A stretch of DNA of 64,000 nt, taken from Pecten maximus (Eukaryota). The notes beneath the pieces are model-generated. The model searched no databases. It was not told where the DNA came from and worked only from the letters and a program-made list of their open reading frames with translations. The stretch spans positions 22,444,001 through 22,508,000 of the forward strand of contig NC_047017.1 in NCBI RefSeq assembly GCF_902652985.1. Reading direction: 5' to 3'. This document shows, one piece after another, positions 5,201-64,000 of this stretch. A program made the position numbers and the translations under genes. Positions within the stretch are counted from its first letter, which is position 1. Every line of letters starts with the position of its first letter.

Positions 5201-8200
5201 GTGAGATAATCCATTGTTAATGTGTATTATTGGTGAGATAATCTATGGTTAATGTGTATTATTGGTGAGATAATCTATTGTTAATGTGTATTATTGGTGA
5301 GATAATCCATTGTTAATGTGTATTATTGGTGAGATAATCCATTGTTAATGTGTATTATTGGTGAGATAATCTATGGTTAATGTGTATTATTGGTGAGATA
5401 ATCAATTGTTAATGTGTATTATTGGTGAGATAATCCATTGTTAATGTGTATTATTGGTGAGATAATCCATTGTTAATGTGTATTATTGGTGAGATAATCC
5501 ATTGTTAATGTGTATTATTGGTGAGATAATCTATTGTTAATGTGTATTATTAGTAAGATAATATATTGTTAATGTGTATTATTGGTGAGATAATCTATTG
5601 TTAATGTGTATTATTGGTGAGATAATCTATTGTTAATGTGTATTATTGGCATCAGCAGTTTTACCGACAGTAATTTGATTGTCTATTGATTTGTTTGTCA
5701 TCTTCATTCACTTTTGGCGAGAAAACATGAAATCGTATCAAGATTAAAAAAAGCTGATATGAAATGATAGTGAATGTGTATTTCAATGCTAATTGGAGCC
5801 CTGCGAAAGCATATTTTTCCAGAATAGAAAATAAACAGAATATGATTATGTAAATATGTGAATAAATTGGCCTGTATTGGCGTGTATTTACAACGTTTTG
5901 AGATAGCAAAATCATTAACTCACATGACAACTGAAAACGCTTAGTGAAACAAGAGAAAAGTCGCATGTGGAACTATCGGGGCGTCACAGTGCAAGACAAA
6001 ATGACTTTGAGTATACATAACTAGTTTTGCATGTTAAAGAGATAAGCTCAAGAAAATGGTGTTTTCACAAATATTTGCAACATTCTTACTATTTCAAGTG
6101 AGATTTTTAATCCTGTCGCGATTTTCTAGTTCGCATAAAGAGAACTATTCCCAGATTTGGTCCATCAATGAAATGTACAATATATTTTGAAAATACATGT
6201 ATGATATATGTTATATTGGAAGTGTGTCGTTTTCGTTAAAAGTGTACGATTGATTGGAAATGCTGAATGCTAAATTTGAAAATGCAAACAATTAAGACAT
6301 AGACACATAACTAATCAGGTGTCCAAAATTGAACTGAAATATCTACAATGTCTGTTTTCAGTTTTGATTATTCTGGTACTGACTACACGGATGAAGGACT
6401 AGTAATGAAATACGCCTATATTATCGATAATGCCGGAATGTTTGAGGTATGTACAAGAGATATGTACAATATGACTGATACATCTGTTGGAGTGTGACGG
6501 GATATTTGTTGTCTTTAACCTACCTGAAATATATCTACCGAACACTGCCAGGTTTTTTAAGGTGGCCAGGTCTTACCTTCCACTTAGGTGGCCGGGATTC
6601 GATTCCCTGATCTGACGTGAAAAGGTATGGGGTCAACTGCCCGACCATGTGGGTTTTCCCTAGGTACTCCGGTTTCCTCCCACAGTAAAACCCATCGCGC
6701 GCTTCCATCCGGGCCAACAAGCGTGGTTAATATAGGTTGATATAACTTGTTTTGCAATTGTAAAATAAATCAAATTTATATTTACATTGGATCTCAGGTG
6801 ATGGTACAACATTATGTGACTTACATAAGTTTGTATTGGTCATCCTGGATGTTGTTATATCCTAGGTTACTAACACGATGGGAGAACTTGAGGGGCCTAA
6901 GTCAAAGATAAGTCTAAAAGCCTCCAATTTTTTTATACAAAAATGGTCCTTGACGTTTAACATGGAATTTGGAATGTTGAAAATCCGTAGCTAATGGATA
7001 AGGTTCTGCGTTAGGCAACCATGATTTCTGAGGTCTATATATGTAGAGCTCTAGGATACATGTTGTTGAATGGTATGCGAGATATAGGCAGATCGTGTAG
7101 AATACTAGTTGCATTTTTGACGTGTATAAATATGAAAATTCTCTATACCCTTCACGAATTCGTACCTTATGTTTTGAATATTATGTTATCAACAAAAAAT
7201 TGTTTTCCTATCGTTTTGATTTTCTCGGCGATACACTTCGGAAAGGTTTCCCATAACAATATCAATCGATAACATAAGATATGAAGAAAATAATTGTTTC
7301 TAAAGCATTATTGTTGGTATAGAGAATATACTACATATTGTTTTCACGTGTAACTGATTATATAATGCGATTGATTATTTGTTCTTTTGATTGAGGAGAT
7401 ATCTTCAATCGTGTTCTCTCGAAATAAGACATTAAAGAGACCACTAGTAAATACTTAAAGTGCATTGTTTTCTTCAGTTGTGGAATACGGACGTGAAACT
7501 CCTGAATATATGTAGTGGCGACGATTGCACTGTCCCATCGGAACTACAACAACTCCAATACGACACCTACCCAGAAGACAAGAAACAGAATATAGAACTT
7601 GTAGTGTACCATGGAGCTGGACATTTAATTGAACCGCCATATTCTCCGTTATGTAGATCGTCTTACCATAAGGCCATGGGTAAGTATATCCACACCATAA
7701 GGCCATGGGTAAATATATCCACACCATAAGACCATGGGTAAGTATATCCACACCATAAGGCCATGGGTAAATATATCCACACCATAAGACAATGGGTAAG
7801 TATATTCACACAATAAGACCATGGGTAAGTATATCCACACCATAAGGCATATGTGAGTAAAGCCACACCATAAGACCATGGGTAAGTATATCCACACCAT
7901 AAACCATGGGTAAGTATATCCACACCATAAGCCATATGTGAGTAAAGCCACACCATAAGACCATGGGTAAGTATATCCACACCATAAGACCATGGGTAAG
8001 TGTATCCACACCATAAGCCATGGGTAAGTATATCCACACCATAAGACCATGGGTAAGTATATCCACACCATGAAGCCATGGGTAAGTATATCCACACCAT
8101 AAGACCATGGGTAAGTATATCCACACCATAAGACCATGGGTAAGTATAGCCACACCATAAGACAATGGGTAAGTATATCCACACCATAAGACCATGGGTA

Positions 8201-10562
8201 AGTATATTCACACAATAAGACCATGGGTAAGTATATCCACACCATAAACCATATGTGAGTAAAGCCACACCATAAGGCCATGGGTAAGTATATCCACACC
8301 ATAAGGCCATGGGTAAGTATATCCACACCATGAAGCCATGGGTAAGTATATCCACACCATAAGCCATATGTGAGTAAAGCCACACCATAAGACCATGGGT
8401 AAGTATATCCACACCATAAGACCATGGGTAAGTATATCCACACCATAAACCATATGTGAGTAAAGCCACACCATAAGACCATGGGTAAGTATATCCACAC
8501 CATAAGACCATGGGTAAGTATATACACACCATAAGGCCATGGGTAAATATATCCACACCATAAGACAATGGGTAAGTATATTCACACAATAAGACCATGG
8601 GTAAGTGAAGCCACACCATAAGCCATATGTGAGTAAAGCCACACCATAAGACCATGGGTAAGTATATCCACACCATAAGACCATGGGTAAGTATATCCAC
8701 ACCATAAACCATATGTGAGTAAAGCTACACCATAAGGCCATGGGTAAGTATATCCACACCATAAAGCCATGGGTAAGTATATCCACACCATAAACTATGG
8801 GTAAGTATATCCACACCATAAGCCATATGTGAGTAAAGCCACACCATAAGACCATGGGTAAGTATATCCACACCATAAGACCATGGGTAAGTATATCCAC
8901 ACCATAAGCCATATGTGAGTAAAGCCACACCATAAGACCATGGGTAAGTATATCCACACCATAAGCCATATGTGAGTAAAGCCACACCATAAGACCATGG
9001 GTAAGTATATCCACACCATAAGACCATGGGTAAGTATATCCACACCATAAGCCATATGTGAGTAAAGCCACACCATAAGACCATGGGTAAGTATATCCAC
9101 ACCATAAGACCATGGGTAAGTATATCCACACCATAAGACCATGGGTAAGTATAGCCACACCATAAACCATATGTGAGTAAAGCCACACCATAAGGCCATG
9201 GGTAAGTACATCCACACCATAAACCATGGGTAAGTATATCCACACCATAAGCCATATGTGAGTAAAGCCACACCATAAAGTAATGGGTAAGTGAAGCCAC
9301 ACCATATAGCTACATCATCAAGCTATTGGTAAGTATAGTAATACAATCAAGTCATGGGTAAGTATAGCAACACTATCAAGTCACGGGTAGGTAAAACCAC
9401 ACCATGAAGTCATGGGTAAGTATAGCTACTCCATAAAGCCATGTTTAATTATTTTATTTTCATTTCATTTTAAGCCTTTCCACAACCATCGTTGATACTC
9501 CAAGGGTTACAATTACATACGCTTAGATAGCAAGTGATCGTAACCCTTGGTTATCGACGATGCTCCATAACACACGCGGATAACCGCGGATAATTTCATG
9601 ATCATCCGTGAATCGGTATAAGATACTGAGTCTTTTCTTTGATAATCGGTTTTCTGCATCCTTCCATATTTGATGTTAAATTTACATCTAATGGTGATAG
9701 TCGTGCGTGTGTTTTAATACAACTCTCTATACTACCAATATATGTAGACGCATTGCAGTAGAGTCATAGAGGAACATACCATCCAAACACTCAGGCCAGA
9801 AAATCCTATGGTGTAACTATGTACATAAAACCAACACATATATGTCGTTGATCTTTCCTCTAAATACGAGGGACACTGTTGTCTAGTAATATGTCCAAAT
9901 CAGATACTTAGTACATTGAACCTGTACTTGTAATGAACTTCGGTTGATCAAACATCACTTTGTCCAAAGATTTACAAATTACAGGTTCAACGTCTATACA
10001 TCAACTTTTTATGATAACTTGTGCAATGCTTTGTAATATTTTCAGGACATAAACAGGGCCTTGACGAAGACCCTGCCTCTTTCAGAACACCCAGGATCAG
10101 TTTCATCCATACGCCTTAACTTTAGGACATTTCTTAATTCCATAGGAAAGCTTTACCGAATTTTAGGAAGGTTTCTCAGTTAAGACTTTTCCCTTCAATT
10201 CAAAAATCCCTTCAATTCAAAAATACTTCCCTTTGGATTTTTTAAGTGAAGGCACGTTGATGAAACCGGTTCATTGTCTTATTCTCCAGGTACGTCGTGA
10301 AGGGTCGCCATGCAAATCTATATATATTTCTTTCGTTTTATCGATCTTGATTAAGAAGTATGGTTCCATGGTTATTTCGGTATTCTATGCTGTTGTAATT
10401 AATATCATATGTTTCTGCTTTTCAGGAACAAACATAGTATGGGGTGGAAACTTTCGGGATCATGCCTATGCTCAGGAAGACTCCTGGAAACGGATAAAAG
10501 ACTTTTTTGGAAATAATCTTCCAAAACATTCCAGTGATGTACGACTATCTAGTCGCTTATGA
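2223..10562 (+). CDS. ACOT: Type-I acyl-CoA thioesterase / BAAT-family alpha/beta hydrolase, gene 1 (5'-partial; first coding exon(s) upstream of window); predicted peroxisomal
   Basis: Exons 2223-2486, 2796-2968, 3852-3965, 4406-4494, 6362-6446, 7478-7679 and 10426-10562 are all AG/GT-bounded and phase-compatible. Motifs: [28 protein letters not shown], nucleophile GVSKG, acid [30 protein letters not shown]. Ends SSRL*. The symbol denotes the family, not a one-to-one orthologue. Confidence 0.92.
4969..5650. repeat. 32-bp minisatellite, ~21 copies (intron of gene 1)
   Basis: Unit TGTGTATTATTGGTGAGATAATC(C/T)ATTGTTAA, highly homogeneous. Confidence 0.95.
6575..6785 (+). mobile_element. 5'-truncated tRNA-derived SINE fragment
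   Basis: B-box-like GGATTCGATTCCC followed by GGTTTTCCCTAGGTACTCCGGTTTCCTCCCACA, a conserved central-domain motif of metazoan SINEs, then an AT-rich tail. Confidence 0.65.
7666..9440 (+). repeat. 28/29-bp minisatellite derived from the exon end and 5' splice site of gene 1 (~55-60 units)
   Basis: Unit A ACCATAAG(A/G)CCATGG|GTAAGTATATCCAC; unit B ACCATAAGCCATAT|GTGAGTAAAGCCAC. The first unit overlaps codons Y-H-K-A-M-G and the true donor at 7680. Units degenerate after ~9305. Confidence 0.95.
9488..9561. repeat. Short imperfect palindrome (MITE-like)
   Basis: CATCGTTGATA..CCAAGGGTTACAATTAC pairs with GTGATCGTAACCCTTGGTTATCGACGATG. Confidence 0.55.
10096..10272. mobile_element. MITE with ~28-bp imperfect terminal inverted repeats
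   Basis: GATCAGTTTCATCCATACGCCTTAACTT matches the reverse complement of AAGTGAAGGCACGTTGATGAAACCGGTTC. Confidence 0.55.
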
Positions 10563-20200: not shown

Positions 20201-23200
20201 AAGGTGAGTGCGGCAGCCACTGTTGATTAACCATTGTTTGATGATGTGTAATAATATTATCAGTTTTCATATTAATAGTACGCAAATGGCATACCTATAG
20301 TAAGTTTTATATATAAAATGCAAATTACATGCACACAACTATAATTAAACATTGTCATAATATGTATAGATCTATGTGATTATTTATCATACAATGTTAA
20401 TAAAATGAAAATCAGATAATTATTCATTTAAAATGTTTACAGCTTAAAAAAGAAATGAGGATGATCAAGGTATATGGGATCTGAGTTGTGCAGTATTAAA
20501 ATAGTGTTAAAATTTGTTGTTGACAAGGTTTACATTTTGTATACATTGACATCAGTGAGTAATGATTGTGTATTTTCAGGAGGCAGTAACGTTCCTGGAC
20601 ACTCACACTCATGTCCAGTCAGATGGCATTGGTATCATAGCGACCTCTAAAGGGGCAGAGCTTGGTCAGTTCCTGGCAATCCACTGTCCTCTGGTAAGTT
20701 AAATTATCCACAGCATGATATGTTCTCTGGTTTGTTTGTTATACCCACCGTCCCTTGGTAAACTTGTTTGATTACCAACAGTCCTCTGGTAAACTTATTA
20801 TTGTAAATTTGGAAATTCATGCAAGGGGGAAATTTACACTTATTATGCATGCAGAGTCCTTTTGACCAGGAAAATTCCACCCAGACGTATTATTTGGATA
20901 TCAATTTGCATAATCTGAACTACAAATGGGTGGATCGATAAAAAAATTACCCCCAAGCATATAGTTAACATATTGAAATTGTGAAATTAACTCCCTGTGA
21001 AAATTACCATGTTTACAGTAATTTAGCCACAGTCCTCTGATAAACTTGTTAATTTACCCACAGTCATCTACAGTCACAATTAAATCAATTTATTGTGATT
21101 TTAAATCAAAGGTTGATCATGAATGACTGTTTTGCTTGTCATGTTTCTACACAACACATGTATCTAACTTAAGTGACAGTAAATATTTACAGGGAGAAAA
21201 TCATTGTTTCTTCTTTTAAAGATATGAAAATAAACATGATATATACAAACTGTATATAATGATGATGGGTTAGAAACCTCTTTCTATTGTTATTGTAGAT
21301 TTTTAAACCAAGAATCAGGGAATGAATCAGTTTGAAATGATCAATTGACTTATTGATATGAAAGTATATGCACAACAATAACACATCTACAACCTGTCTG
21401 CAAAAGCAATCTGATTAAGAAATACAGATCAACAATACACTGTAATGAAGGTCTTCATAACACAATGTATCAATATGTTTTTTAATCAGATTGTCTATAA
21501 AGAACTCCTGTTTCACTTCCTAATATAACAAAATACATTGTAAATGTACAAGTATATGAATCTTTATATAAAGATCACTTGCCACAAATGCCACTGCACT
21601 TCTTGAGTTGCTTATGATAAATACCTAAAATATTTTAACCCTCCCCCGTTAAATGGGAGTATACAGTAATATATTAGCATCTGCCAAACAATAGGATCAT
21701 TGGTCAGATCGAGTTAAATATCAAATATTACACTTGACTACTTTCAAAATAAAAAGCTCATTTACAAGATACCCCTGAGAAATTGATATTTTATTGATGA
21801 GGGGGTGGGGGTATATCTGTTAGCCCCAGGAGGGATTAATTTTATTGATAAGGGGGTGGGGGGTATATCTGTTAGCCCCTGGAGGGATTAATTTTATTGA
21901 TGAGGGGGGTGGGGGTATATCTGGTAGCCCCTGGAGGGATTAATTTTATTGATGAGGGGGTGGGGGTATATCTGTTAGCCCCTGGAGGGATTAATTTTAT
22001 TGATGAGGGGGTGGGGGTATATCTGTTAGCCCCAGGAGGGATTAATTTTATTGATGAGGGGGTGGGGGGTATATCTGTTAGCCCCTGGAGGGATTAATTT
22101 TATTGATGAGGGGGTGGGGGTATATCTGTTAGCCCCTGGAGGGATTAATTTTATTGATGAGGGGTGGGGGTATATCTGTTAGCCCCTGGAGAGATTAATT
22201 TTATTGATGAGGGGGTGGGGGTATATCTGTTAGCCCCTAGAGAGATTAATTTTATTGATGAGGGGGTGGGGGTATATCTGTTAGCCCCTAGAGAGATTAA
22301 TTTTATTGATGAGGGGGTGGGGGTAGTTCTGTTAGCACCTAGAGAGATTAATTTTATTGAAGAGGGATGGGGGTTTGTCTTGTATTTGTAAAGGATTTCA
22401 AACAAAGCAGTATGGATATTCTTAAAACTTTTACTTATGAAGTAATATGTGTTTTTGGTCACAGATAAATGTGTGGAATAATGACATTCAGGTATGATGG
22501 GTTTGCAATAATAATCTTTTGCCATTTAAAGATGCAACACTGGCATTGTGACAGAATTATATATATAAAGTGTATACATATGTATATGGTATGTATGGTC
22601 AATGTCCAGGAGAAACATCAACATGTGATATATAAAATGCCAATATATTTGTTTGTAGGTTAAAGCCATAGTCAGTATTAATGGTATGCCCTACTTATCA
22701 TTCTCTCCAATCCATGATGGATCGACTTCTTATCCAAATGCCATAGAGTAAGTACATGTATATCTAATCGTACAGAGAATGATTGGCTCTTAGTTTAAAT
22801 CTTAAGTATCCAGTGTCTTCATAACCAAATTGAATGATCTTCTATGTACACTAAAACATAAGACAAACAGGCTTGATACCAATTTCTGTTTTTTTCTGAC
22901 ATAGCTAAATTAAAATCTTTAAGTTTGGCTCACTATGTTTTATTTGGAATCCTATAAAAAGTTTCAGATATCAAACTATTACTTTTGGTCCAATATTTGG
23001 AATTCTGTTTTGTGAATGTATGATTTTACTTTATCCTCTGAATTGATGTCAGTTTCACCATGTAATTCCTGCCTATTGACCAATGTGGTATTTTAGGTTA
23101 GATCTTGCTCTATATGAGCTTTCTGAGGAAGGGATCATTGCCAAACCTGGCCACTGTTTCGACACTTCCAAGTTTTTCAAGGTATAGTGCTGTGTGTTTA

Positions 23201-25775
23201 CTGGTGTCTTTCTTATGTAGAATTTTGTTACTTAAAAATGATTGAACAATAGTTGCTTTGATTTATGAATTGTCTGTCCCTTGATCATTGTCTGTCCTAT
23301 GTCCATTGTATGTCCCATGTCCATTGTATGTCCCATATATGTCTCATATCTATTGTCTGTCCCTTGTCAAGTTGTTTGTTTTCCTTTAACAACTTCTCAA
23401 TTGCCAAGAGGCCTTGTTTCATTACATGACCTTAGAATTATGCTAGGATAAAGGACTCTCAATTTATTTAGTCAAAAGAAGAGACATAAATCCATTTTCA
23501 AAATCACAGGTACCAAATGTGTTTTAACATTCTGACCTAATAATAACCTTATAATATCAATTGCCATAGGCTCTGAATTGCTGAATAGAAGACTATTCCT
23601 GTCAATGCACTGCAAACCTCTTCATACTGAAATGAGGATTTTTTTGGTCCATGTATGTTTTTATCTATGTTTGTTTGCGGGTTTATCACCCTGTGAGCAT
23701 CCAGGGCCATTTTGATGTGGGGTCTCTTTGTAGTAGTTGGTGCCTACCACACTAAGGTCATCATCCATATTAGATATGGTAAAATGTCTTGCCTAAGGAT
23801 ACAACCACGACAGCATAGACCAGCCTGTTCCTCATGATCAGCTGCCAGAGAAACTCAATTCAACATAGATAGGGAGGTTCAAACCACACACCACTGATGT
23901 TTCTCCTGAGGTTTAGTGGCTGATATGTTCTAACCGACTAATATATCATCGTCCTCAAAGATTAAAATCTTCCAATAAATTCATAAAGATCCTACGATAA
24001 TGCAGTGCCCAGAAATTTGTAACAGATGAGCATTGCAGGCCCCTTATCCCATTTTGATATTTATCCAAACAATTACTTCAAATTTGTGTGATTCTCAATT
24101 TACAGGTTTGGGAATCTGATGTGAAAATTCTGAATATCTGTGGTGGTGATGATATGAATGTACACCCAGACCTACAGCAGTTACAAGTTAAATGCTTCCC
24201 TGCCCACAAACGAGACAACATAGAGCTGTTGGTATACCAGGGAGCTGGGCACCTAATAGATCCGCCCTTTTCTCCGCATTGTCGAGCCTCATTTAATAAA
24301 TTATTACGTGAGTACTATATATACATGACCATATCTATAAATACTTTTATAAGTCTAGAAGAATGTTGTTCTATACACTATAATCAACAACAGATGAAGT
24401 GTGTGCACACTCAACATATCTATAAAATAACATGTACAGAAACATTAACACAATACCCACAAAGCCCATACTGTTACATGTACCATATAAATGTATACTG
24501 CAGTGTAAAACATACCATATTATTAGCATCATCTGTTATATAGACCATGCCATATCATTAGCATCATCTGTTGTATAGACCACCCCATAACATTGGTACC
24601 ATGTCATATAGACCAGACAGTAACATGAGGACCATTTGTTATATAGACCATGCCTTAACATTAGCATTATCTTCCATATAGACCATGCCATAACATTAGC
24701 ACCATCTGTCATATAGACTATACTGTTACATTAGCACCATTTGTCATATAGACGATGCAGTTACTTTAGCACCATTTGTTATATAGACCAGACAGTAAAT
24801 TAGCACCATCTGTCATATAGACCAGACAGTAAAATTAGCACAGTCTGTCATATAGACCATATTGTAACATTAGTACCATGTCATATAGACCATATTGTAA
24901 CATTAGTACCATGTCATATAGACCATATTGTAACATTAGTACCATGTCATATAGACCATACTGTAACATTAGCACAATTTGTTACATAGACCATGCCATA
25001 ACATTAGCACCATTTGTTATATAGACCAGACAGTAACATTAGTACCATCTGTTATATAGACCAGACAGTCCCATTAGCACCATTTGTTATATAAACCAGA
25101 CAGTAACATTAGCACCGTCTGTCATATAGACCATACAGTAACATTAGCACCATCTGTTATATAGACCAGACAGTAACATTAGCACCATCTGTTATATAGA
25201 CCAGACAGTAACATTAGTACCATCTGTTATATAGACCAGACAGAACATTAGTACCATCTGTCATATAGACCAGACAGAACATTAATACCATCTGTTATAT
25301 AGACCATACTGTAACATTAACACCATTTTTCATATTGTAAAACCATGTTGGCATGCAGCACATTTTAAAACAATGAACTGAATTGTCCACATATATATAG
25401 TAATTCAGTCCCATATTGTTTTTTAATCAAAAGACTAATTGATGTGATAATTGTAAGAATATTAGTGGTACTTTAAAAACAAACATATGTGTTGATTAAA
25501 AGTACTTTCACTTGTTGATATTGTAACACCCTGTTTGTTATATCATTTACAAGTTCTATTACTTGTTTGCATTGAAGTTAGCTGTTCTATCGTTCAGAAA
25601 TTGCATTATCTGTTAAAATTCTGTTGATATTGTAGAGAACTGTTTGGTATGGGGAGGTAATCCTGTAGACCATGCCTACGCACAAGAAGACTCTTGGAGA
25701 CGCATTCTGACTTTCTTTAATAGACATTTACGTGAGGGACATGCCAGCAAAGATAGAATTAAAAGCCTACTGTAG
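17271..25775 (+). CDS. ACOT: Type-I acyl-CoA thioesterase / BAAT-family alpha/beta hydrolase, gene 2 (complete, 456 aa) with predicted mitochondrial leader
   Basis: Exons 17271-17335, 18555-18793, 19255-19521, 20034-20203, 20580-20693, 22659-22747, 23097-23181, 24106-24307 and 25636-25775 total 1371 nt and are open throughout. Motifs: [75 protein letters not shown]. Exon sizes 114/89/85/202 are identical to gene 1. The first exon is less certain than the rest. Confidence 0.92.
17797..17957. mobile_element. Palindromic non-autonomous element (MITE or Crypton-like) in intron 1 of gene 2
   Basis: AGAATATGCATGGTCAGTGTCTTAAAATATAAGTTGTA pairs with TACAGCTTATTTTTTAAGACACTGACCATAAATTCT; the inner arms TTTTGGC..AGAAAGACA / TGTCTTTCT..GCCAAAA also pair. 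Confidence 0.7.
18837..19073 (+). mobile_element. Full-length tRNA-derived SINE in intron 2 of gene 2
   Basis: Pol III A box TGGCCGAGTGG, B box GAGTTCGAAAC, central GGTTTTTCTCCGG..CTGGCTTTC..CCACC domain, and an (AAC)n plus poly(A) tail. Confidence 0.85.
20799..21020. mobile_element. MITE with TA-flanked degenerate terminal inverted repeats
   Basis: TATTGTAAATTTGGAAATT..GCAAGGGGG matches the reverse complement of CTCCCTGTGAAAATTACCATGTTTACAGTA. Confidence 0.6.
21788..22372. repeat. 51-bp G-rich minisatellite, ~11 copies (intron of gene 2)
   Basis: Unit TTTTATTGATGAGGGGGTGGGGGTATATCTGTTAGCCCCTGGAGGGATTAA. Confidence 0.95.
24510..25330. repeat. ~35-bp degenerate minisatellite, ~23 copies (last intron of gene 2)
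   Basis: Unit ACATTAGCACCATCTGTTATATAGACCAGACAGTA. About 5 homologous units also occur at 62547-62730. Confidence 0.9.
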
Positions 25776-26171
25776 CTAAAATAGGAAAGACATATATGCA
25801 TTTTGGAGTAAATCTGTTAATTTTTGTAATCCTGTGTAAGGAGATTTAGAGGAATTTTTCGAGTCAGATGTGTTACAACAGTTCAACAATAATTTTGAGA
25901 TAAACGGGTCCCACAATTATCATAATAGGAGATTGAATATTTGAAATAGTTTGAATTTCTCCGATAGAGAAATCTGATTTATGATTAATGAGAGTGCATG
26001 ATGAGATTGATAAGCATTGATTTTACTTTATTGAAGGTTACAACCGTGCATTCACATGTTCTTATCTGCATTTATTGCTTTTTTATGGATATTGTTGTTT
26101 GTTTTTTAGATATATTGTACTTGATTTGTTGATGTATTTTCTTAATATCATATTTTATTTTTTGAATCTAG

Positions 26172-26177
26172 AATAAA
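26172..26177 (+). terminator. Probable polyadenylation signal of gene 2
   Basis: AATAAA ~400 nt after the stop codon, preceded by U-rich sequence and followed by GU-rich TTTGTTAGTGGTGTTGTT. Confidence 0.55.
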
Positions 26178-26270
26178 TCATAACACCATAACACTCCTCT
26201 TGATTTGTTAGTGGTGTTGTTATGGTAACATCTAGATCGTTTTACAATTATATCACATTTTAGGCCCTAA

Positions 26271-26590
26271 GCATCACTGACGAGTCCTAAAAGGACAAAA
26301 CACTTGTATAGTGCAAGTATAACTTGTCTTTTGAAATCCTTTGATGTTCTTGCTTACCAATTGCTACTGGATTCCATCGCATTAGGCCCTAGGCATCACT
26401 GATGAGTCCTAGGACAAAAAAGCTGTATGATGTCCCTAGCATCACTGACGAGTCCTAGAAGGACAAAAAAGCTGAATGATGTCCCTAGCATCACTGACGA
26501 GTTCCAGAAGGATGACACAGCTATATGATGTCCCTAGCATCACTGACGAGTCCCAGAACGATGAAACAGCTGTATAACATCACTGACGAA
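26271..26590 (+). ncRNA. Tandem array of minimal type-I hammerhead ribozyme motifs (5 units plus a partial), individually mutated
   Basis: Consensus GCATCA-CTGA(C/T)GA-GTCC-TAGAA-GGAC-GAAA-C-AGCT-GTA-TGATG: stem I CATCA/TGATG, core CUGANGA and GAAA, stem II GUCC/GGAC, palindromic AGCU loop III, GUA cleavage triplet. Units start at 26271, 26393, 26439, 26488 and 26537. Confidence 0.78.
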
Positions 26591-27248
26591 TGGGAATTTT
26601 AAAACTAGTGAGAAAAAGTGAGGCATTTTAGTTTTTGTGAATTGTTTATTTATTACAGCAAACAACTCGTGGCGGACGGATATATATACTGTACAAGCAA
26701 ATATAAAATCCATACCGAAGTGTATCTTACAGTAGCAACAGTAGCAACGTAGAATGGTCCACAACACATGAGACATCATTTGTCAGCTTTTTTGTACATT
26801 GTTGTACATTAAAACTTCAAATAGGAAAACATTCATTTTTTGATATGGTGTGCTGCATTACAGTATCAAACCACAATTTAGTCACATACATTAACATATA
26901 CACTAGTCAGTTTAATGTGATTGTTAATCAGTTGAAATTCAAATTGACATTTTTTTTCAATATGATATATTCTCTTCTGCTTCAGACGAACATATGTATA
27001 TAACACATCAATCTAAGATAAACTAATATTTGCATAAATACTGAACAGTTATAGCAAGTTAAAATCATTTACAAATCTGACATGCGGAACGGTTCAAAAG
27101 CAGGTGTTAAAACGCAAGGACTGACAACACAGACGGAAAACAATTAATTAATTGATAATACAATGTAAAATTTACAAATAAAAAAAATAATAAAAACCCA
27201 AAAAACAAAGAAATATTACTGATGTCAGAAAATCATTTTGTAAATGCA

Positions 27249-29281
27249 ACAAGAGGCCCAAAGGGCCTTAACGGTCACCTGAGATTTGAAATATTTCAGC
27301 CAACTAAATTGACCCTTTTTGGCCCCACCCATCAGTCCTAATGGGGTCAGTCTATGAAGAGTATTTGATTCTAACATATAGTAGATAAGAAGATTTTTGA
27401 AATTTCAGTCAATTTGACCCTTTTTGGCCCCGCCCACCAGCCCCTGGGAGTCAACCGGGGCCAACATGTACATAACATCAAACTGTAATCCCATGCTGAT
27501 AATTTGAACCAAGTTAGAATGAATTCCAATACAAATCCAACAAATAATAGTCAAAAATGTGATTTCCCTATATAAACTATAGTAAAGTTTACCCCCTCCC
27601 CAGGGGCAAACGTGAGACCCCAGGGTCATGAAATTCACAATTTTGGTAAAGCACCTTAAGACCCTTCCATCTATGAAGAGTATTTGATTCTGCCATATAT
27701 CTGAGAGTAGGGAAGAAGATTTTTGAAATTTTAGTCAATTTGACCCTTTTTGGCCCCGCCCACCAGCCCCTGGGGGTCAACTAGGGCCAACATGTACATA
27801 CCATCAAAGTATCATCCCATGCTGATAATTTGATACAAGTTAGAATGAATTCCAATACAAATCCAACAAATAATAATCAAAAATGTGATTTCCCTATATA
27901 AACTATAGTAAAGTTTACCCCCTCCCCAGGGGCAAACGTGACCCCAGGGTCATGAAATTCACACTTTTGGTAAAGCACCTGAAGAGCCTTCCATCTATGA
28001 AGAGTATTTGATTCTAACATATCTGAGAGTAGAGAAGATTTTTGAAATTTCAGTCAATTTGACCCTTTTTGGCCCCGCCCACCAGCCCCTGGGGGTCAAC
28101 TAGGGCCAACATGTACATACCATCAAAGTATCATCCCATGCTGATAATTTGATACAAGTTAGAATGAATTCCAATACAAATCCAACAAATAATAATCAAA
28201 AATGTGATTTCCCTATATAAACTATAGTAAAGTTTACCCCCTCCCCAGGGGCAAACGTGAGACCCCAGGGTCATGAAATTCACACTTTTGGTAAAGCACC
28301 TGAAGAGCCTTCCATCTATGAAGAGTATTTGATTCTAACATATCTGAGAGTAGAGAAGATTTTTGAAATTTCAGTCAATTTGACCCTTTTTGGCCCCGCC
28401 CACCAGCCCCTGGGGGTCAATCAGGGCCAATATGTACATAACATCAAACTGTAATCCCATGCTGATAATTTGAACCAAGTTAGAATTAATTCCAATACAA
28501 ATCCAACAAATGATAGTCAAAAATGTGATTTCCCTATATAAACTATAGTAAAGTTTACCCCCTCCCCAGGGGCAAACGTGAGACCCCAGGGTCATGAAAT
28601 TCACAATTTTAGTAAAGCACCTTAAGACCCTTCCATCTATGAAGAGTATTTGATTCTACCATATCTGAGAGTAGAGAAGAAGATTTTTGAAATTTTAGTC
28701 AATTTGACCCTTTTTGGCCCCGCCCACCAGCCCCTGGGGGTCAATTAGGGCCAACATGTACATACCATCAAACTGTCATCCCATGCTGATAATTTGATAC
28801 AAGTTAGAATGAATTCCAATGCAAATCCAACAAATAATAGTCAAAAATGTGATTTCCCTATATAAACTATAGTAAAGTTTACCCCCTCCCCAGTGGCAAA
28901 CGTGAGACCCCAGGGTCATGCAATTCACAATTTTGGTAAAGCACCACAAGACCCTTTCATATATAAAGAGTGTTTGACTCCACCATATCTGAGAGTAAAG
29001 AAGAAGATTTTTGAAGTTTTAGTCAATTTGACCCTTTTTGGCCCCACCCCTCAGGCCCCTGGGGGGTGGGGACCATATAATTCACAATTTTGGTTGACCT
29101 TCAGCCATAGAAACTTTCTGCCAAATTTCATTGAATTTTGTTAAGTGGTTTTGGAGAAGAAGTCGAAAATGTAAAAAGTTTACCGACGGACGACGCACGA
29201 CGGACGACGGACGACGGACGACGACGGACAAAAGGCGATTAGAATAGGTCACTTGAGACTTCGTCTCAGGTGACCTAAAAA
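27249..29281 (-). mobile_element. Non-autonomous Helentron/HINE-like element (family A), young copy with ~5 full internal ~322-bp repeats
   Basis: Inverted copy of 608-1845: ACAAGAGGCCCAAAGGGCCTTAACGGTCACCTGAG ... CTCAGGTGACCTAAAAA, with a (GAC/GGAC)n microsatellite at 29185-29230. AGTCAATTTGACCC recurs at ~27407, 27733, 28052, 28372, 28697 and 29021. Confidence 0.85.
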
Positions 29282-30799: not shown

Positions 30800-31540
30800 T
30801 CATGGGCCCACTCGGATAGTATTTTCTCTCATCCCTACCGGTATCATACTGGTCTGTCCAGGTAAATACACCCATGCTTGCTGTGTGTGTATTACCCCGC
30901 TTCCGGTGTAGGATAGCCACGCGCGCGCAATGATACAAAAGTAGGTCGCCGAACCGAAAGTAGATCTATCTATAGATTTGTAAACACATCGTCTGCTCCA
31001 TGTTATGTAATCAGATAATAATTTTTTTTATCTATGATATAAATTATGTAAAAAAGACACGTTCTTTTATTGTTTTTTATTAATAAAACATGGAACTATA
31101 TTTTCGCGCGAAAGGACACACTAGCTTGGCCGACATCAAGTGATTTGGCTTCGCTTGCAATGACAGGGCTGCTCAAACAACGTTAGACTGTGGAAATGAA
31201 TGGTTTCCTTCGTTTTTAGAACAGCAAATGTAGTTTGCATATATGGGGTATGGTAAATCTTTTTTTTATTATATGCAGTAGAAAAAAAGTTTGGATTGAG
31301 AAAAAATGGCGTCTATCTGAGAAAGCTATCGACAGATAGTGCCTATTTTTGCATATTTTAGGTTGGGGAATGAGAGAAAAATACTCAATCATATGTGGTT
31401 CATGTAGGATAGGGATATTTCACCCTCTGGGTCACAAAATGTGGTAAAACCCTCGGCGGAGCCTCGGGTTTTACCACATTTTGTGACCCCTCGGGTGGAA
31501 TATCCCTATCCTACATGACCACATATGATAGAGTCTTATA
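30800..31540. mobile_element. Non-autonomous element with 150-bp terminal palindrome (Crypton-like, tentative)
   Basis: 31383-31534 is a near-perfect hairpin centred on CCTCGGCGGAGCCTCGG. GTATTTTCTCTCATCCC (~30818) is inverted relative to GGGAATGAGAGAAAAATAC (~31366). A decayed relative is at 55047-55180. Confidence 0.6.
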
Positions 31541-34353: not shown

Positions 34354-37300
34354 TCAACATTTCGTGAGGATTGCTGCCATCTTGGCCATAGTTGCGGTGT
34401 TTAGATCACATTCATACAAGCCGCTCTCACTACTGAAAGCCATGTCGACGATAGCACCAAGCTGTCTGAATTCCTTGCCAGTGACACGAAGACTCGTGGG
34501 TGTCAATGATGAGAGATTTTCCTTATTGGTATGGTGGAGCACCAGCACTGTTACATCACTGCCGACTGAGGAAAAGAACCGATTGTAATTAAACAGTTAA
34601 AACAAATTGAAATACATATAAAATACAATACAAATGACATAAGTAACACTCCATTAAGTAATACAAATGAATGTCATAATTCACATCGACTCTTAGGGGT
34701 CCTGAGTTTGATTCCTATAGAAAGCTTATACGAAATAACGACATCTGTTGCATGAACTTAAGATGGAAACGGATTCGTATATGACTGGTGGACAATCTGT
34801 TGCTGAGAGTGAATATTAAATATTTATTTCATCGTTAAAACAAAAACAAAAAATACCTTCATTTGACTATGAATAATGTATGAACTTTGAATAATCGCTA
34901 TTCATCGTTCTGCCATGGTTCTTCAACTTCCGTGTCTCCATGACTCCAATTGCACAACACCAGTTTTTCAAAGTAGTTTTATCATGTATCCTCTAGATAA
35001 TAAATGTTTTGAGAATGTCATTTTTGTTGCTATTACATGTAATTAACTTCTGTTACATAAACTAACCAGTAGTATATAGCTTTACCTTCGATTCCCAATA
35101 GTGCGTCCTGTATGTTTGTTCCAACTCTTGACATGTTCAAACATAACACGACTAGAGGACCTTTCGGAGTGTCGGATCCCTTATGATATAGCTTGACAGC
35201 AAGACTGAACTTTGTCATGTCAATCATCAGCTCTAAACGTTTGGACATTTCTTTCGTCACCATATCAAGCATTGTCTTTCCAATAGAATTACCATACCGT
35301 ATTCCTAAAACTGTAACATAATGTTTATATGGGACAAGTATAATTATGTTTAAGACGAAAGAGTATTTAACATAAAGTTAGGTCCCTCTTTAAACATTGT
35401 AAATATGATTATGCAACGATGACACTCAGAGGTATCAAGTATTTGAGAAACAAAACATATTCAATAGTTTATCAAAGAAGGAAATTAATAATATTATTCT
35501 TTCAAAGCGAAGTCAAATTTGTCATAGTTTGAAGGCTCTATCGTTAATTACCAATTTTGTTAGAGAATAGATATATTTGCAAGACGGGCTAAGTTGTCGT
35601 TTACTCGTATAAAATATCGGAGACAATGGCAATGCATATGACTAATTTCAAAATATTGTAGTGTATATATCATTAACATACCTATATCTTTCTTTTTTGG
35701 TTTTCGTAATTCTAGTATCTCCTCTTTCATATGTTGGATTTCCTCTTCTTTTTCGCCTACGGAAAACAGACACGGGTACAAACAAAAATAATCAAATACA
35801 GTTTCCTGAACTAGTTTCATAACCGAATCAAACTTCAACGGTACAGTTGTTCATGTAAGGGAGTTCCTTTAATGACGTGAAGATGTTTTCTGTAATCATA
35901 TAAATTATTACACTATTATTATCAATAAATTGCCATCACTGAGCAAAACCTTATGTTAATAGTTCTTAAAATTAAAAATCAGTTAAATCAAAGAAAAACA
36001 GCGTTCGAGCAAAAACTGTTGAACGTAACATATCAATAACATTTTAGCTTACAAATATTGTGGTTCAACTCCTCAATGTTGCATGACAGAGAATTGAGAT
36101 CTTTTCTGGATTCAGTTTGCAATCGATCTAAATTCTCTTGTAGTGTTTCATTCTCTTCTTCCAGTGCGTGAACCCTAAACGTCAAACGTTCCTTTTCTTT
36201 CTCATTTTCCTCAAGATCTGACGTCATTTTTGCCTTTTCCCTTTTAAGTGTCTCAACATTTCCTGTCATTCGTTTCTTTTCTTTTTCAAGATCTGACATC
36301 AGATTTGTTTTTTCTCTATGAAGTGTCTCAATATTTCTTGTCAAACTTTCCTTTTCCTCCTCGTTTTTCTCCAGATCTGACTCCAGTTTTTCTTTTTCTT
36401 TTTCTAGTGACTGAACAGTTTTTGTCAAATCTTCATTTTCCTCACTGTATTTCTCCAGATCTGACATCAGTTTTGTTTTTTCTCTTTGAAGTGTCTCAAC
36501 GTTTCTTGTCAAATGTTCCTTTTCTTCCTCGTGTTTTTTCAACTGTGACGCAAGTTTTGATTTTTCTTTTTCTAGTGACTCAACAGTTTTTGTCAAACCT
36601 TCATTTTCATTACCGTATTTCTCCAGATCTGACATCAGTTTTGTTTTTTCTCTTTGAAGTGTCTCAACATTTCTTGTCAAAGCTTCATTTTCCTCACTGT
36701 ATTTCCCCAGCTCTGACGCCAGTTTTGTTTTTTCTCTTTGAAGTGTCTCACCGTTTTTTGTCAAATGTTCCTTTTCTTCCTCGTTTTTTTCCAGGTCTGA
36801 AACCAGTTTTGTATGTTCTTTTTCAAGTGTCTCAACGTTTCTTTTCAAACTTTCCTTTTCTTCCTTGTTTTTCTCCCGATCTGACTCCAGTTTTGTTTTG
36901 TTTTTTTCTAGTGACTGAACAGTTTTTGTCAAAGCTTCATTTTCCTCACTGTATTTCTCCAGATCTGACATCAGTTTTGTTTTTTCTCTTTGAAGTGTCT
37001 CACCGTTTCTTGTCAAATGTTCCTTTTCTTCCTCATTTTTTTCCAAATCTGAAGCCAGTTTAGTTTTTTCTTCTTCTAGTCTCTTAACGGTTCCTGTCAA
37101 ACTCTCATTTTCTTCCTCGTTTTTTTCCAGGTCTGAAACCAGTTTTGTTTTTTCTTTTTCAAGTGACTCAATAGATTTGGTTAAATCTTTATTTTCTTCA
37201 CTGTATTTCTCCAGATTTGACTCCAGTTTTGATTTTTCTTTTTCTAGTGACTCAACAGTTTTTGTCAAACCTTCATTTTCCTCACTGTATTTCTCCAGAT

Positions 37301-40300
37301 CTGACATCAGTTTTGTTTTTTCTCTTTGAAGTGTCTCACCGTTTCTTGTCAAATGTTCCTTTTCTTCCTCGTTTTTTTCCAAATCTGAAGCCAGTTTTGT
37401 TTTTTCTTCTTCTAGTCTCTTAACGGTTCCTGTCAAACTCTCATTTTCTTCCTCGTTTTTTTCCAGGTCTGAAACCAGTTGTGTTTTTTCTTTTTCAAGT
37501 GACTCAATAGATTTGGTTAAATCTTCATTTTCTTCACTGTATTTCTCCAGATTTGACTCCAGTTTTCTTTTCTTTTTTTCTAGTGACTCAACAGTTTTTG
37601 TCAAAGCTTCATTTTCCTCACTGTATTTCCCCAGCTCTGACGCCAGTTTTGTTTTTTCTCTTTGAAGTGTCTCACCGTTTTTTGTCAAATGTTCCTTTTC
37701 TTCCTCGTTTTTTTCCAGGTCTGAAACCAGTTTTGTATGTTCTTTTTCAAGTGTCTCAACGTTTCTTTTCAAACTTTCCATTTCTTCCTTGTTTTTCTCC
37801 CGATCTGACTCCAGTTTTGTTTTGTTTTTTTCTAGTGACTGAACAGTTTTTGATAAACCTTTTTTTTCTTCATCGTATTTGTCCAGGTCTGATCTCAGGT
37901 TCATATTTTTGTCTTTCAGACTCTTTGTGTCCTTCTCCAGGGTTTTTATTTGTCTATCTTTTTTATCTGCAAAGGAAACATTATGCCTATTTAGAAAACA
38001 TATACGTAACAGGAATCATACATAGTAAACAAGCCCGCCTGAACGACCAGTTGTCTTTCTGCAACAATTTATAATAAACGATTAAGGTGAAAATCGCAAG
38101 GTCGTTGTATTGTTAAGAAAAATAGTTCTGCTTCTGTGCTGATAATAATTACAACGGAGTTATCAAAACTAAGCTGCAAAAGTATACGTATGTAACAACA
38201 GACCACTTCAGAGCGGGGTAGGTACATGTTTCAATGATGTTTTGATATTCATAATCAATACGCAGGTAAATTATTGCTAGCAGTATCTTTCAAATAAATG
38301 GATAAACAACTTGTTTTATTTTTATAATGATGCTAGTTCCAGATATGGCTCTGGATTTTTTGAATGGAAATAGAAGTTTGCTATTGGATTTGCTAATATT
38401 AGGCAATGTGTAGGTGAAATACACAAATAGTATGTCCCTGTAAATATGCAAGGTAACCTGGGGTCCATTACGGATACAGTACATATTTTCAATTGAATCC
38501 TACATAACAACGGTTTTCAGTTTTGTTAAATACCCAATGCAGTACCTCACCAGCAAAACCTGTTTGGAAGTCAGTAGAGTGTCTGCGGTCAAAAACGACT
38601 TTACAATACGATTCACTGAGAGCGTCGTCTCAGTAACCCTTGGCATACAAGGTCAGGTGTGATTACCGTAGTCGCTTCGTAAGAAGCCCTGGGTTTACAG
38701 GTAAAATAAATCTGAACGGATATTTTATTTCAGAAGTGTGGTCATGAACCTTAATGTTGACTTTGAATGACTATACATAATAAAATAATAAAACAATTCT
38801 CAGATTAATGCATTAATGAATGCTCCCTTTCATATACGTCCCGATATACGTATGCGTATACGTAAGCGGCTTAATTTTGAAAACTTTATTGTAAATATCC
38901 CTCATATAAATTTTTTACCAGTTCGGTTGACATTAATTTATTGTACACAGTGATTTTCTTTTAACTGCACTGATTTTTTGTTTTTGTTTTTGTTTTTTTC
39001 TTTTCTCTTTTTTTTTTACAGACTTTCTTATTATTCAAATCAGATACGTTCATAGGGTTAACTGCTGTCCTATTACAGCGCGCAACAAAATATCCCCTGT
39101 GTAGGCACAATCCACTAATTTAATGTGCTTTCAACTAAGGTCTAAACGATTTAACAACTGGTGTTTCTCTTCGAATTCAGAGAATAATAAAACTGATTAG
39201 TATCAAATGTCATCCTACAAGTCTTTATCCTACGGACATAATAAAAACAAATATAAAATCTAGTTTCGAAATGTACACTGTAAAAAATAATATGATATCA
39301 AACTAAAGCCTTGGAACTGTTGATACTGGTTTTCACACTTGAAATATATTAATTAGTTTTATATGAACTTTTGAGTGCCATCGTTATCATTTTGATATAT
39401 TACAAATTTTGTTCACATTTACAATGTATATTTTAGTATTTGTCAGGGAAACATCTCTTGTAATGATGATTATATATTAATTCATGATTAACATTGGAAT
39501 GTAATGGGAATAGCAAAGGCTTTATTCGTGAATTAATGAATCTATTCAACTTTTACCTATAATGAATTTTGGTTGTTTCTTATTGGTGTGATCCTCATAA
39601 TTTTAATCAAAATTGACTTCAATTTTTGAAGACGTTCGGGTAAAATAGGATATGTGTTTTGTTAGATACCTTAAAAGCTTGCCCAGCTGTCTTTCTAGGA
39701 CAACCACGTGACTAAGAGAAATGGCTTGTCAATAACTGTAACGATCGCTGCTATCACGTGGTAGAGAATATAAAAATGTGCATAATATATATTGAATTCA
39801 AAATTTGGAATAATCTTCTCCTTACACAGAATTTTATCATAATTTATTTATTTTACAAAATATCTAAAAAATATGCCACTTTAATATCAATCAATACGCT
39901 GGGTAAAATATCACATATCTTACCAAGAGTGTTATACAAATCTCTGTTCTTGGACTCCAAATCTGTCAAATTCATATTTGACGTCGTTTTATTTTCTTTT
40001 AATTTACCGACCTTTTGCTCGAGTCGTTCACATTCTTCTTTCAACGAGCGTACCTCGTCATTTTTCGAATCTGTTAATACAGGAATATTTCCATGACACT
40101 CCATTGTTATTTACTCTGGCACATCATTTATATATATATATATATATACCATTAAAAACAGGGAAATTTAATGAGTTTCAATCCATCATTGGATGTGACA
40201 TTATATACCAAGAATGTGCCAATGTTGGTGTAAATGTGAAAAGAAATCAGGAATATCACTGACTTCAATGGGTGATATCAGTGGATCAATCTAAGTGAAC

Positions 40301-62546: not shown

Positions 62547-63415
62547 GACAATACCGTTACATTAACACCATTTGTTATAGACACCATACTGTTACATTAA
62601 CACCTTATGTCCTATAGACTAGACAGTGACATTAGCACAAACAGTCATATAGACCATACTGTAACATTAGTACCATCTTTCAAATAGACCATGCCATAAC
62701 GTTAGCACCATCTGTCATAAACCATGCTGGCATGCAGCACAATTAAATACAATAACCTTCGGTGTCTTCATATATGTAAAAGCAAACCTTTATTTGTTGA
62801 TATTAGTTTTATTACTTGCTTGCCTTGGGTTAAATGATATGCCGTTCAAGAAAATGGTATTGTCTGTTAAACTATCTATATCTGGTGAGAACTGTTTGGT
62901 ACGGAAAGGAAATCCTGTAGACCATGCTTACTCACAATAACATTCTGAATTTCTTTCGTAAACCTATAAAAAAATACATGAGGGACGTATAAGATTGAAT
63001 TAAAAATGGCTATATCCAAAATAGGAAAAACATATGTTCATTTTTGTGTCAATCTGATCTTATTTAATTCGTATCTGGTAGCAGCACTTGTATGCTGCGA
63101 ATTCATTTTTGCTCTACTCTATCTTGTTTTCCACTTATTTTGAAAAGTGCTGATATCTAGTGTGTCTTCTTTACAATCCTATGATATGTCTTACTTTCAT
63201 AAAGCTACTGCATTCAAAATCATTTGGCCCTTTACTGACGAGTCTTAGGAGGATGAAAAGCTGTATGATGTCCCTAGCATTACTGACTAGTCCCATAAGG
63301 ATGAAACAGCTGTATGATGTCCATATGATTTCGGACGAGTCCTAGAAGGAGTAAACACCAGTAGGATAACCTTAGTATTTCAGACGAACCATAGAAGGAC
63401 GAAATAACTGTATAA
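62547..63415 (+). pseudogene. Decayed genomic copy of the 3' end of ACOT gene 2 (intron minisatellite, last exon, 3' UTR, hammerhead array)
   Basis: GAGAACTGTTTGGTACGGAAAGGAAATCCTGTAGACCATGCTTACTCACAATAA (62887-62940) matches 25635-25688, with the acceptor TAG changed to GTG, GAA changed to TAA, and deletions after it. Flanks are collinear with ~25150-25830 and ~26320-26580. Confidence 0.88.
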
Positions 63416-63416
63416 T
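63231..63416 (+). ncRNA. Second, diverged hammerhead-motif array (4 units)
   Basis: CTGACGAGTCTTAGGAGGATGAAAAGCTGTATGATG; GCATTACTGACTAGTCCCATAAGGATGAAACAGCTGTATGATG; the last unit retains GGACGAAA. Confidence 0.65.
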
Positions 63417-64000
63417 GTTTAATTCTGTATTGCAACTGGTAGATGTTATTTCGAACACCATACGGAATACATCTGGATGTCAGAAAGTTCAATTATCACC
63501 ACGGTAAGGATTTCATTCTACAGTTACACTAATTTTAATGCTGGGCTTACTGTCATCAAGTGAGTATTTTATAAAAAATAACTATATATGTGTAGAAGTG
63601 CAACAAATAAACCTGTGTTCTACACCTGTCATGGCGCATCATTTGAATTTGAACCGAAAAGTCGACAGATTCTAATGCATTTCTTATCATCATAAGAATT
63701 CATGTTATATATGTAGGTATAGTGATGATTTTTGAAGGATAAAGTTAAAAATCGCGGACTGGGGCAGTAATGATACGTGACGAAATCTAATTAGTATTCT
63801 CTTCTGAAGAAGATGTTACAAGTAGAATATTGCTATTGCACTTATATAGTACAACCGTACTGTAGCTTTTGCAAAAAAAAAAAAAAAAAAAAAAACTTCA
63901 AAGAAGTCGGCTGATCAAATATTTATGTTGGGTTATTTTCTTTGTCATTATATTTTGCCTTAAAAGAAGCAGCAGAGTTAATTTGTAGGATATCAAAGTG
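63415..64000 (+). repeat. Recent direct duplication, copy 2
   Basis: Matches 59293-59882; identity begins at ATGTTTAATTCTGTATTGCAAC. Confidence 0.95.

What the first reader, a model, noticed from the sequence alone, without database searches (positions are those of the whole stretch)
26393..26580. No single unit is intact, but units may complement each other as a dimeric hammerhead
Seen: units 1-3 have lost G12 (AAAA instead of GAAA) and unit 4 has GACA. Unit 5 keeps CUGACGA and GAAACAGCUG, with a weakened 3-bp stem II that starts with G-U, but has lost its 3' stem-I arm. Unit 2 keeps a perfect substrate strand AGCUGUA-UGAUGU. Inference: pairing unit 5 (ACAGCU) with unit 2 (AGCUGU) gives a 6-bp helix III, and GCAUCA/UGAUGU gives helix I. 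This composite predicts cleavage after position 26427.
Basis: inference. Interest (0 to 1): 0.7.

Follow-up and report, generated by a model that had tools for sequence, protein, structure and literature searches.

The report
Decayed hammerhead minisatellite in 3' UTR
Five damaged copies of a tiny self-cutting RNA motif lie in the untranslated tail of an acyl-CoA thioesterase-like gene; they belong to an old repeat found all over this animal genome, and although two damaged copies can be drawn as one complete ribozyme, that fold is predicted to be rare, so this spot likely does not cut.

Summary
The letter-level observation is right, and the unit-5/unit-2 composite can be drawn with a GUA site at 26427. 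It is probably not a working ribozyme. The array is one decayed copy of a genome-wide 49-bp minisatellite whose usual unit is a complete dimer-type (palindromic helix III) type I hammerhead; 336 exact intact cores exist elsewhere. It grew inside an old ~300-bp dispersed element that mostly carries one hammerhead (retrozyme-like). Across 40 arrays the core is no better kept than the loops, and G12, a CpG, decays fastest. Helix III between units 2 and 5 can form, but the full site lies 5.8-12 kcal/mol above the folding ensemble (intact neighbours elsewhere: 0.4-1.9), because local helix-I hairpins win. New context: the array lies sense in the long 3' UTR of a spliced BAAT/ACOT-like gene, so a Clec2-like role is conceivable. 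Against it, an RNA-like contig crosses 26427 uncut and the duplicated copy at 63.2 kb decayed differently. Dimeric hammerheads, ~50-bp retrozyme units and split 3'-UTR hammerheads are all published, and this scan noted similar decayed hammerhead minisatellites in other genomes.

The parts
26269..26313 (+). Unit 1: lone decayed hammerhead (G12>A, altered helix III and 3' arm); likely the first copy of a head-to-tail pair of the parent element
26314..26387 (+). Spacer resembling the shortened end of the parent's 3' flank plus the end of its 5' flank; shared with the duplicate at 63163-63230
   Evidence: likeness to the flanks read by eye; the flank HMMs did not score it
26388..26432 (+). Unit 2: dead enzyme half (G12>A, C15.2>A, 2-nt loop II), intact substrate half; predicted site after 26427
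26433..26481 (+). Unit 3: G12>A, C15.2>A, U16.1>A; perfect helix II
26482..26530 (+). Unit 4: A14>C (A in one RNA contig of another individual), G16.2>A, weak helix II
26531..26576 (+). Unit 5: CUGACGA and GAAAC intact, 3-pair helix II opening with G.U, no 3' helix-I arm
26575..26589 (+). Sixth fragment: 5' arm and CUGACGA only
25636..25775 (+). Coding part of the last exon of a BAAT/acyl-CoA thioesterase-like gene (Pfam BAAT_C); AG acceptor at 25634-25635, stop at 25773-25775
24106..24307 (+). Matched part of the penultimate exon, spliced to 25636 in RNA contigs
26172..26177 (+). AATAAA upstream of the array; likely proximal poly(A) signal (contigs end at 26203 and 26223 in two runs)
27177..27194 (+). 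Two AATAAA; likely distal poly(A) signals of the long isoform that holds the array
63101..63417 (+). Duplicate: parent 3'-flank match (63101-63186) and four decayed units (63232-63417) behind a broken copy of the last exon (62890-62937); about 70-73% identical to the first copy, with different lesions

Best explanation
This is a decayed local array of a genome-wide 49-bp hammerhead minisatellite, lying sense in the 3' UTR of a BAAT/ACOT-like gene, and it likely does not self-cleave at a meaningful rate. Shown: the repeat unit is a minimal type I hammerhead with a palindromic helix III; it sits between two flanks shared by many dispersed loci, most of which hold a single hammerhead. Inferred: an old non-coding retrozyme-like element of about 300 bp spread through the genome; at some loci its hammerhead was tandemly amplified as DNA (or a variant with a doubled hammerhead spread and then expanded); the units then drifted, fastest at CpG, which includes G12. 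In RNA each unit's 3' arm is predicted to pair with the next unit's 5' arm across a 5-nt loop, so neighbours form the natural active site; here every neighbour pair is broken, and the 2+5 composite is a chance leftover that folds rarely.
For: Family: 236 matches from 40 of 1681 candidates scored; 336 exact intact 35-letter cores, 0 in the reversed control. Parent: shared flanks and non-random array ends; of 35 loci found by flanks alone, 16 hold one unit, 7 an array, 12 no detectable unit, and 4 show head-to-tail order; flank copies are 72-89% alike, so the family is old. No selection seen: non-CpG core below loops in 23 of 40 arrays (Wilcoxon p 0.16); G12 is the most changed core letter (0.30). 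Folding: composite +5.8 to +12 kcal/mol at 37 C against +0.4 to +1.9 in 6 of 6 intact neighbour pairs. The duplicate array has other lesions; 7 stretches around other BAAT_C hits hold no unit. A contig from 25636 to 26468 crosses the site by 41 letters. G12A slows cleavage by more than 500-fold to about a million-fold (PMC2553840, passages); even intact minimal dimers cut poorly (PMC4209133), and 8 of 9 predicted frog retrozyme dimers did not cut (bioRxiv 10.64898/2026.07.22.740005).
Against: Helix III between units 2 and 5 is in the minimum-energy and centroid folds of 26415-26580. A very short helix II can be active if it is G-C (PMC544870, passages). The arrangement is uncommon among dead blocks (4 of 81). 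Nearest-neighbour energies omit tertiary contacts and proteins. Contigs cannot show cleavage, strand or level, and the two runs that bridge the site look like one data set filed twice. The selection test is limited by how loci were found and by shared descent; one helix-I pair shows 18 compensatory units against 8.7 expected, though in only 4 arrays. No link to an autonomous Penelope element was found, so the origin is by analogy.
Confidence: 0.8

Rival explanations
1. Discontinuous hammerhead in the long 3' UTR: unit 5 cuts unit 2 after 26427, removes the poly(A) tail of the long isoform and lowers its level, as the split Clec2 ribozyme does in rodents.
For: Sense position in a spliced gene's long 3' UTR; a nested, pseudoknot-free fold exists; helix III 2/5 forms in short contexts; the long isoform looks minor in 4 of 5 data sets; precedent in Clec2 (PMC2950038, PMC6155905, passages).
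Against: P(full site) 8e-5 or less; G.U at 10.1-11.1; the depth drop lies at the proximal AATAAA, before the array, with no step across it (runs X10, X13); a contig bridges 26427; not kept in the duplicate.
Confidence: 0.07
2. Weak residual activity without a role: the composite, or unit 4 in the allele with GAAA, cuts slowly in vitro at high Mg2+ after refolding, but nothing depends on it.
For: All core letters are present in the composite; one contig shows A at 26516; short helix II can work.
Against: Same folding penalty; the allele rests on one contig at depth 4.4 in X13 (plus two X3 contigs that may come from other loci).
Confidence: 0.1
3. Unit 2 is cut in trans by intact units transcribed from other loci of the family.
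For: 336 intact cores; RNA-run contigs with G at the G12 place are laid on unit 3 in 4 of 4 runs; trans cleavage is reported for Schistosoma hammerheads (PMC6765202, passage).
Against: Unit 2's 3' arm is held in a local hairpin (P 0.6-0.9); only about 13 pairs; the donors' own arms are tied up in the same way; strand of those contigs is unknown.
Confidence: 0.03

Closest known systems
Metazoan non-LTR retrozymes (Cervera and de la Pena 2020, PMC7229834, passages; Li, Clavereau and Pollet 2026, bioRxiv 10.64898/2026.07.22.740005, parts 1-3 of 5)
   Same: Non-coding, dispersed, tandem repeats carrying a type I hammerhead; parent monomer about 300-365 bp with some head-to-tail copies; family consensus lengths down to 51 bp are reported, and local minisatellite-type amplification is proposed there.
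   Different: Here the amplified unit is the hammerhead alone (49 bp) inside the parent's flanks; no young parent copy was found; circular RNA and cleavage are untested; this copy has no intact unit.
Minimal, dimer-type hammerheads of Penelope-like elements, newt satellite 2 and ASBVd (PMC4209133, parts 1-3 of 4; Forster 1988 and Lunse 2017 known only through citing papers)
   Same: 6-bp helix I, 4-bp helix II, palindromic helix III that is stable only between two copies.
   Different: The palindrome (8 nt) is longer than in the min-HHR descriptor, and no PLE link was found.
Discontinuous hammerhead of mammalian Clec2 3' UTRs (Martick 2008, not held; seen through PMC2950038 and PMC6155905 passages)
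   Same: Type III-like topology with a large insert closing helix I, in a 3' UTR.
   Different: Clec2 is conserved across mammals and shown to cut and lower reporter output; here the insert holds competing arms, the core region is damaged, and nothing is conserved or shown.
Hammerhead-bearing satellites of cave crickets (pDo500; PMC2837043, passages)
   Same: Satellite DNA with single- and double-hammerhead folds.
   Different: There the hammerhead is more conserved than the rest of the repeat and G12 changed in one of 198 sequences; here G12 is the most changed core letter.

Membership tests
Hammerhead ribozyme (this locus, single unit) | All core letters and three helices in one unit | tested here: not met
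   0 of 5 units; Rfam scores below gathering
Hammerhead ribozyme (composite of units 5 and 2) | Core letters CUGANGA, GAAA, NUH site | tested here: met
Hammerhead ribozyme (composite of units 5 and 2) | G10.1-C11.1 pair and stable helix II | tested here: not met
   G.U, U-A, C-G, then mismatch; the pair is called highly conserved in PMC4209133
Hammerhead ribozyme (composite of units 5 and 2) | Three-helix fold is populated | tested here: not met
   P 8e-5 or less against 0.05-0.5 in 6 controls at 37 C; prediction only
Hammerhead ribozyme (composite of units 5 and 2) | Site-specific self-cleavage | not testable with these tools
   contigs only; one crosses the site uncut
Dimer-type minimal type I hammerhead (family unit) | Complete core, helices I and II, palindromic helix III | tested here: met
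   majority unit; 266 of 764 units keep all 11 core letters; 336 exact cores
Non-LTR retrozyme | Dispersed non-coding repeat of a few hundred bp with a type I hammerhead, partly head-to-tail | tested here: met
   (4 of 35 loci head-to-tail)
Non-LTR retrozyme | [quoted passage not shown] | tested here: not met
   not at this locus; met at 6 of 13 other arrays examined
Non-LTR retrozyme | Expressed as linear and circular monomer RNA | not testable with these tools
   only contigs were available
Penelope-like element terminal repeat | Same hammerhead or flanks beside an RT/GIY-YIG ORF | tested here: inconclusive
   0 of 30 GIY-YIG loci (30 of 150 matches, 1.5 kb each side) match unit or flank profiles; best E 0.24
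Clec2-type discontinuous 3'-UTR hammerhead | Sense position in an mRNA 3' UTR | tested here: met
   spliced contigs and BAAT_C; applies to the long isoform
Clec2-type discontinuous 3'-UTR hammerhead | Both halves conserved in homologous genes | tested here: inconclusive
   not kept in the duplicate and absent near other paralogs; no related species available

The most novel reading that the evidence does not exclude
A dead ribozyme minisatellite has been recycled: two non-adjacent, individually inactive units rebuild one discontinuous hammerhead that clips the long 3'-UTR isoform of an acyl-CoA thioesterase mRNA, an invertebrate-type parallel to Clec2 that arose by complementation, with alleles at unit 4 tuning it.
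Probability: 0.06. Interest if true: 0.7.

Novelty: new member of a known kind. Interest (0 to 1): 0.25.

Why it matters
As read here it is ordinary: one more decayed hammerhead repeat. It does show how a hammerhead-only 49-bp minisatellite grows out of a single-ribozyme element, and the family offers natural runs of intact neighbours whose junction ribozyme is predicted to fold well, a cheap test of whether such arrays cut their host transcripts. If the composite did cut, it would show that broken repeat units can complement each other to regulate an mRNA, a route to Clec2-like split ribozymes.

Tried and rejected
Unit 5 with unit 4 (neighbour): C15.2/A16.2 mismatch; with unit 3: U16.1 lost; with unit 1: +17 kcal/mol or more. 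Array ends marking the cleavage site (insertion of cut RNA): 3' ends centre after the helix-I arm, not at the site, and are explained by shared parent flanks; a crude search for target-site duplications showed nothing convincing. A first masked BLAST found few shared flanks; shorter words found them. Penelope link: none in 30 GIY-YIG loci. Possible loop-1/loop-2 pairing (CUA/UAG): seen by eye, no compensatory support in the rows, not pursued. Contig depths as expression levels: not used beyond a hint; they disagree between runs (downstream/upstream about 0.07 in X10, above 1 in X11). Two primary papers (PMC5785218, PMC2612532) were not held. Paper searches listed no description of this particular family; the library lacks most subscription journals, and the bioRxiv supplements that list the 51-bp family were not seen.

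Full report
Observation. Five units have cores at 26277, 26399, 26445, 26494 and 26543, with a fragment at 26583. Units 1-3 lack G12, unit 4 lacks A14, unit 5 has a full core, a three-pair helix II opening with G.U and no 3' helix-I arm. Unit 2 has an intact substrate strand with A17 at 26427. Tandem Repeats Finder gives period 49, 3.9 copies at 26387-26575 and a second array at 63232-63418. Rfam gives sub-threshold hammerhead matches; the two type III matches span the substrate of one unit and the core of the next.

Family. The array belongs to a large repeat family of G000, an animal genome of 918 Mb (taxon not determined by any search): 236 matches from 40 of 1681 candidates. In 25 non-overlapping loci, 461 units give a majority unit that is a complete minimal type I hammerhead: 6-bp helix I, CUGACGA, 4-bp G-C-opened helix II, GAAA, a palindromic ACAGCUGU helix III, GUA site and a 5-nt linker. 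An exact 35-letter intact core occurs 336 times, 0 times in the reversed control. This is the dimer-dependent design described for metazoan and Penelope hammerheads (PMC4209133, parts 1-3 of 4 read; PMC7229834 and PMC6765202, passages), so dimeric action is the family's known mode and not new.

Origin. Array ends are not random: 38 5' ends (Rayleigh R 0.57) and 39 3' ends (R 0.37) cluster, against about 0.05 in simulated truncations; two pairs of these arrays are duplicates of each other. The reason is a shared parent: about 150 bp of 5' flank and 90 bp of 3' flank recur around many arrays. Searching by flanks alone (38 loci besides the two queries, 3 dropped as duplicates) left 35 loci: 16 with one unit, 7 with an array, 12 without a detectable unit; 4 show 3' flank directly followed by 5' flank, with hammerheads about 300 and 365 bp apart in two of them. 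Flank copies are 72-89% alike, so the element is old. This fits a non-LTR retrozyme-like parent whose hammerhead was amplified as a minisatellite; Li et al. report family consensus lengths of 51-972 bp and propose such local amplification (bioRxiv 10.64898/2026.07.22.740005, parts 1-3 of 5). A Penelope partner was not found in 30 of 150 GIY-YIG loci, which is inconclusive.

Selection. In 40 arrays (24 found by likeness to the window, 16 by the intact core; 764 units) 266 units keep all 11 core letters. Non-CpG core letters change at 0.073, loop 2 at 0.069, loop 1 at 0.125; the core is below the loops in 23 of 40 arrays (p 0.16). G12 (0.30) and G8 (0.13), both in CpG, are the most changed core letters. 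One helix-I pair shows 18 compensatory units against 8.7 expected, in 4 arrays, with 14 such units in one; a subfamily or hairpin-templated DNA change could give this. So the arrays look like drifting DNA, unlike the cricket satellite, where G12 changed in one of 198 sequences (PMC2837043, passages).

Folding. In an array each 3' arm can pair with the next unit's 5' arm over a 5-nt loop, so neighbours make a type III-like site. These are nearest-neighbour predictions without tertiary contacts. Short helices II can be active when G-C (PMC544870, passages); G12A is strongly disabling (PMC2553840, passages). Among 172 four-unit blocks from 39 other arrays, 91 hold a complete unit; of the 81 that do not, 4 allow a composite: uncommon, but produced by decay.

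Context. Pfam BAAT_C matches window 24106-24324 and 25638-25772 and a cluster of paralogs. In RNA and RNA-like runs contigs join the penultimate exon (ends 24307, GT) to 25636 (AG), with intron depth 0-8.6 against 10-336 in the exon, while two DNA runs go straight through. The stop is at 25773-25775, so the array lies sense, about 500-800 nt into the 3' UTR. An AATAAA at 26172 precedes it and contigs end at 26203 and 26223 in two runs; other contigs cover the array and reach about 27250-27277, behind AATAAA at 27177 and 27189. A long isoform therefore likely contains the array. One contig (25636-26468; runs X3 and X6, probably one data set) crosses 26427 by 41 letters, and depth does not step across the array in X10 or X13; contigs cannot exclude partial cleavage. 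One X13 contig has A at 26516, which gives unit 4 a GAAA. The duplicate at 62.9-63.4 kb (70-73% alike, broken last exon) has four units with other lesions and no matching enzyme/substrate split; 7 stretches around other paralog exons, including the closest one, show no unit.

Verdict. Most likely (0.8) an inactive remnant that rides in a minor long UTR. The Clec2-like reading (PMC2950038, PMC6155905, passages; the primary paper was not held) is not excluded but unlikely. Earlier notes of this scan describe comparable decayed hammerhead minisatellites in other genomes (unchecked) and none for this stretch. Numbering of hammerhead positions and the NUH rule are from established knowledge.

Noticed in passing
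G000:C6:21852455-21855919 (L044) and other arrays: A 71-unit array with runs of adjacent intact units; the junction site between intact neighbours is predicted to fold well (P 0.05-0.5 in 6 arrays), so such arrays could cut transcripts into 49-nt pieces. Better test objects than the window locus.
   Followed up: partly
L017, L028, L039, L040: A variant unit with a compensatory U-A to C-G change in helix I (19 units in 4 arrays).
   Followed up: partly
L051:4908-5611: An inverted array: 7 units on one strand directly followed by 8 on the other.
   Followed up: no
window 26168-26236: Imperfect inverted repeat overlapping the AATAAA at 26172; an 8-base deletion at 26179 is present in several runs, so it is polymorphic.
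   Followed up: no
window 62527-63417: Orphan duplicate of the gene's last intron (35-bp repeat), a broken last exon and the array; no matching penultimate exon was found nearby.
   Followed up: partly
window 3849-10562 and 20562-25775; G000:C3:22430412-22434567: Tandem cluster of at least three BAAT/ACOT-like genes.
   Followed up: partly
window 27351-29065 and 775-1786: 324-328-bp tandem repeats that look like one family in opposite orientations; the start of the first is very deeply covered by contigs of RNA runs.
   Followed up: no
window 31428-31491: Near-perfect inverted repeat of about 25 bp per arm that gives weak microRNA-family matches in Rfam; probably a small palindromic element.
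   Followed up: no
window 36282-37892: 84-bp tandem repeat with strong strand skew that looks protein-coding on the minus strand.
   Followed up: no
L044:8407-9163 and L045:9128-9821 (minus strand): Cytochrome P450-like fragments (likeness recalled, not tested) near two arrays with shared flanks, suggesting another duplicated gene pair carrying an array.
   Followed up: no
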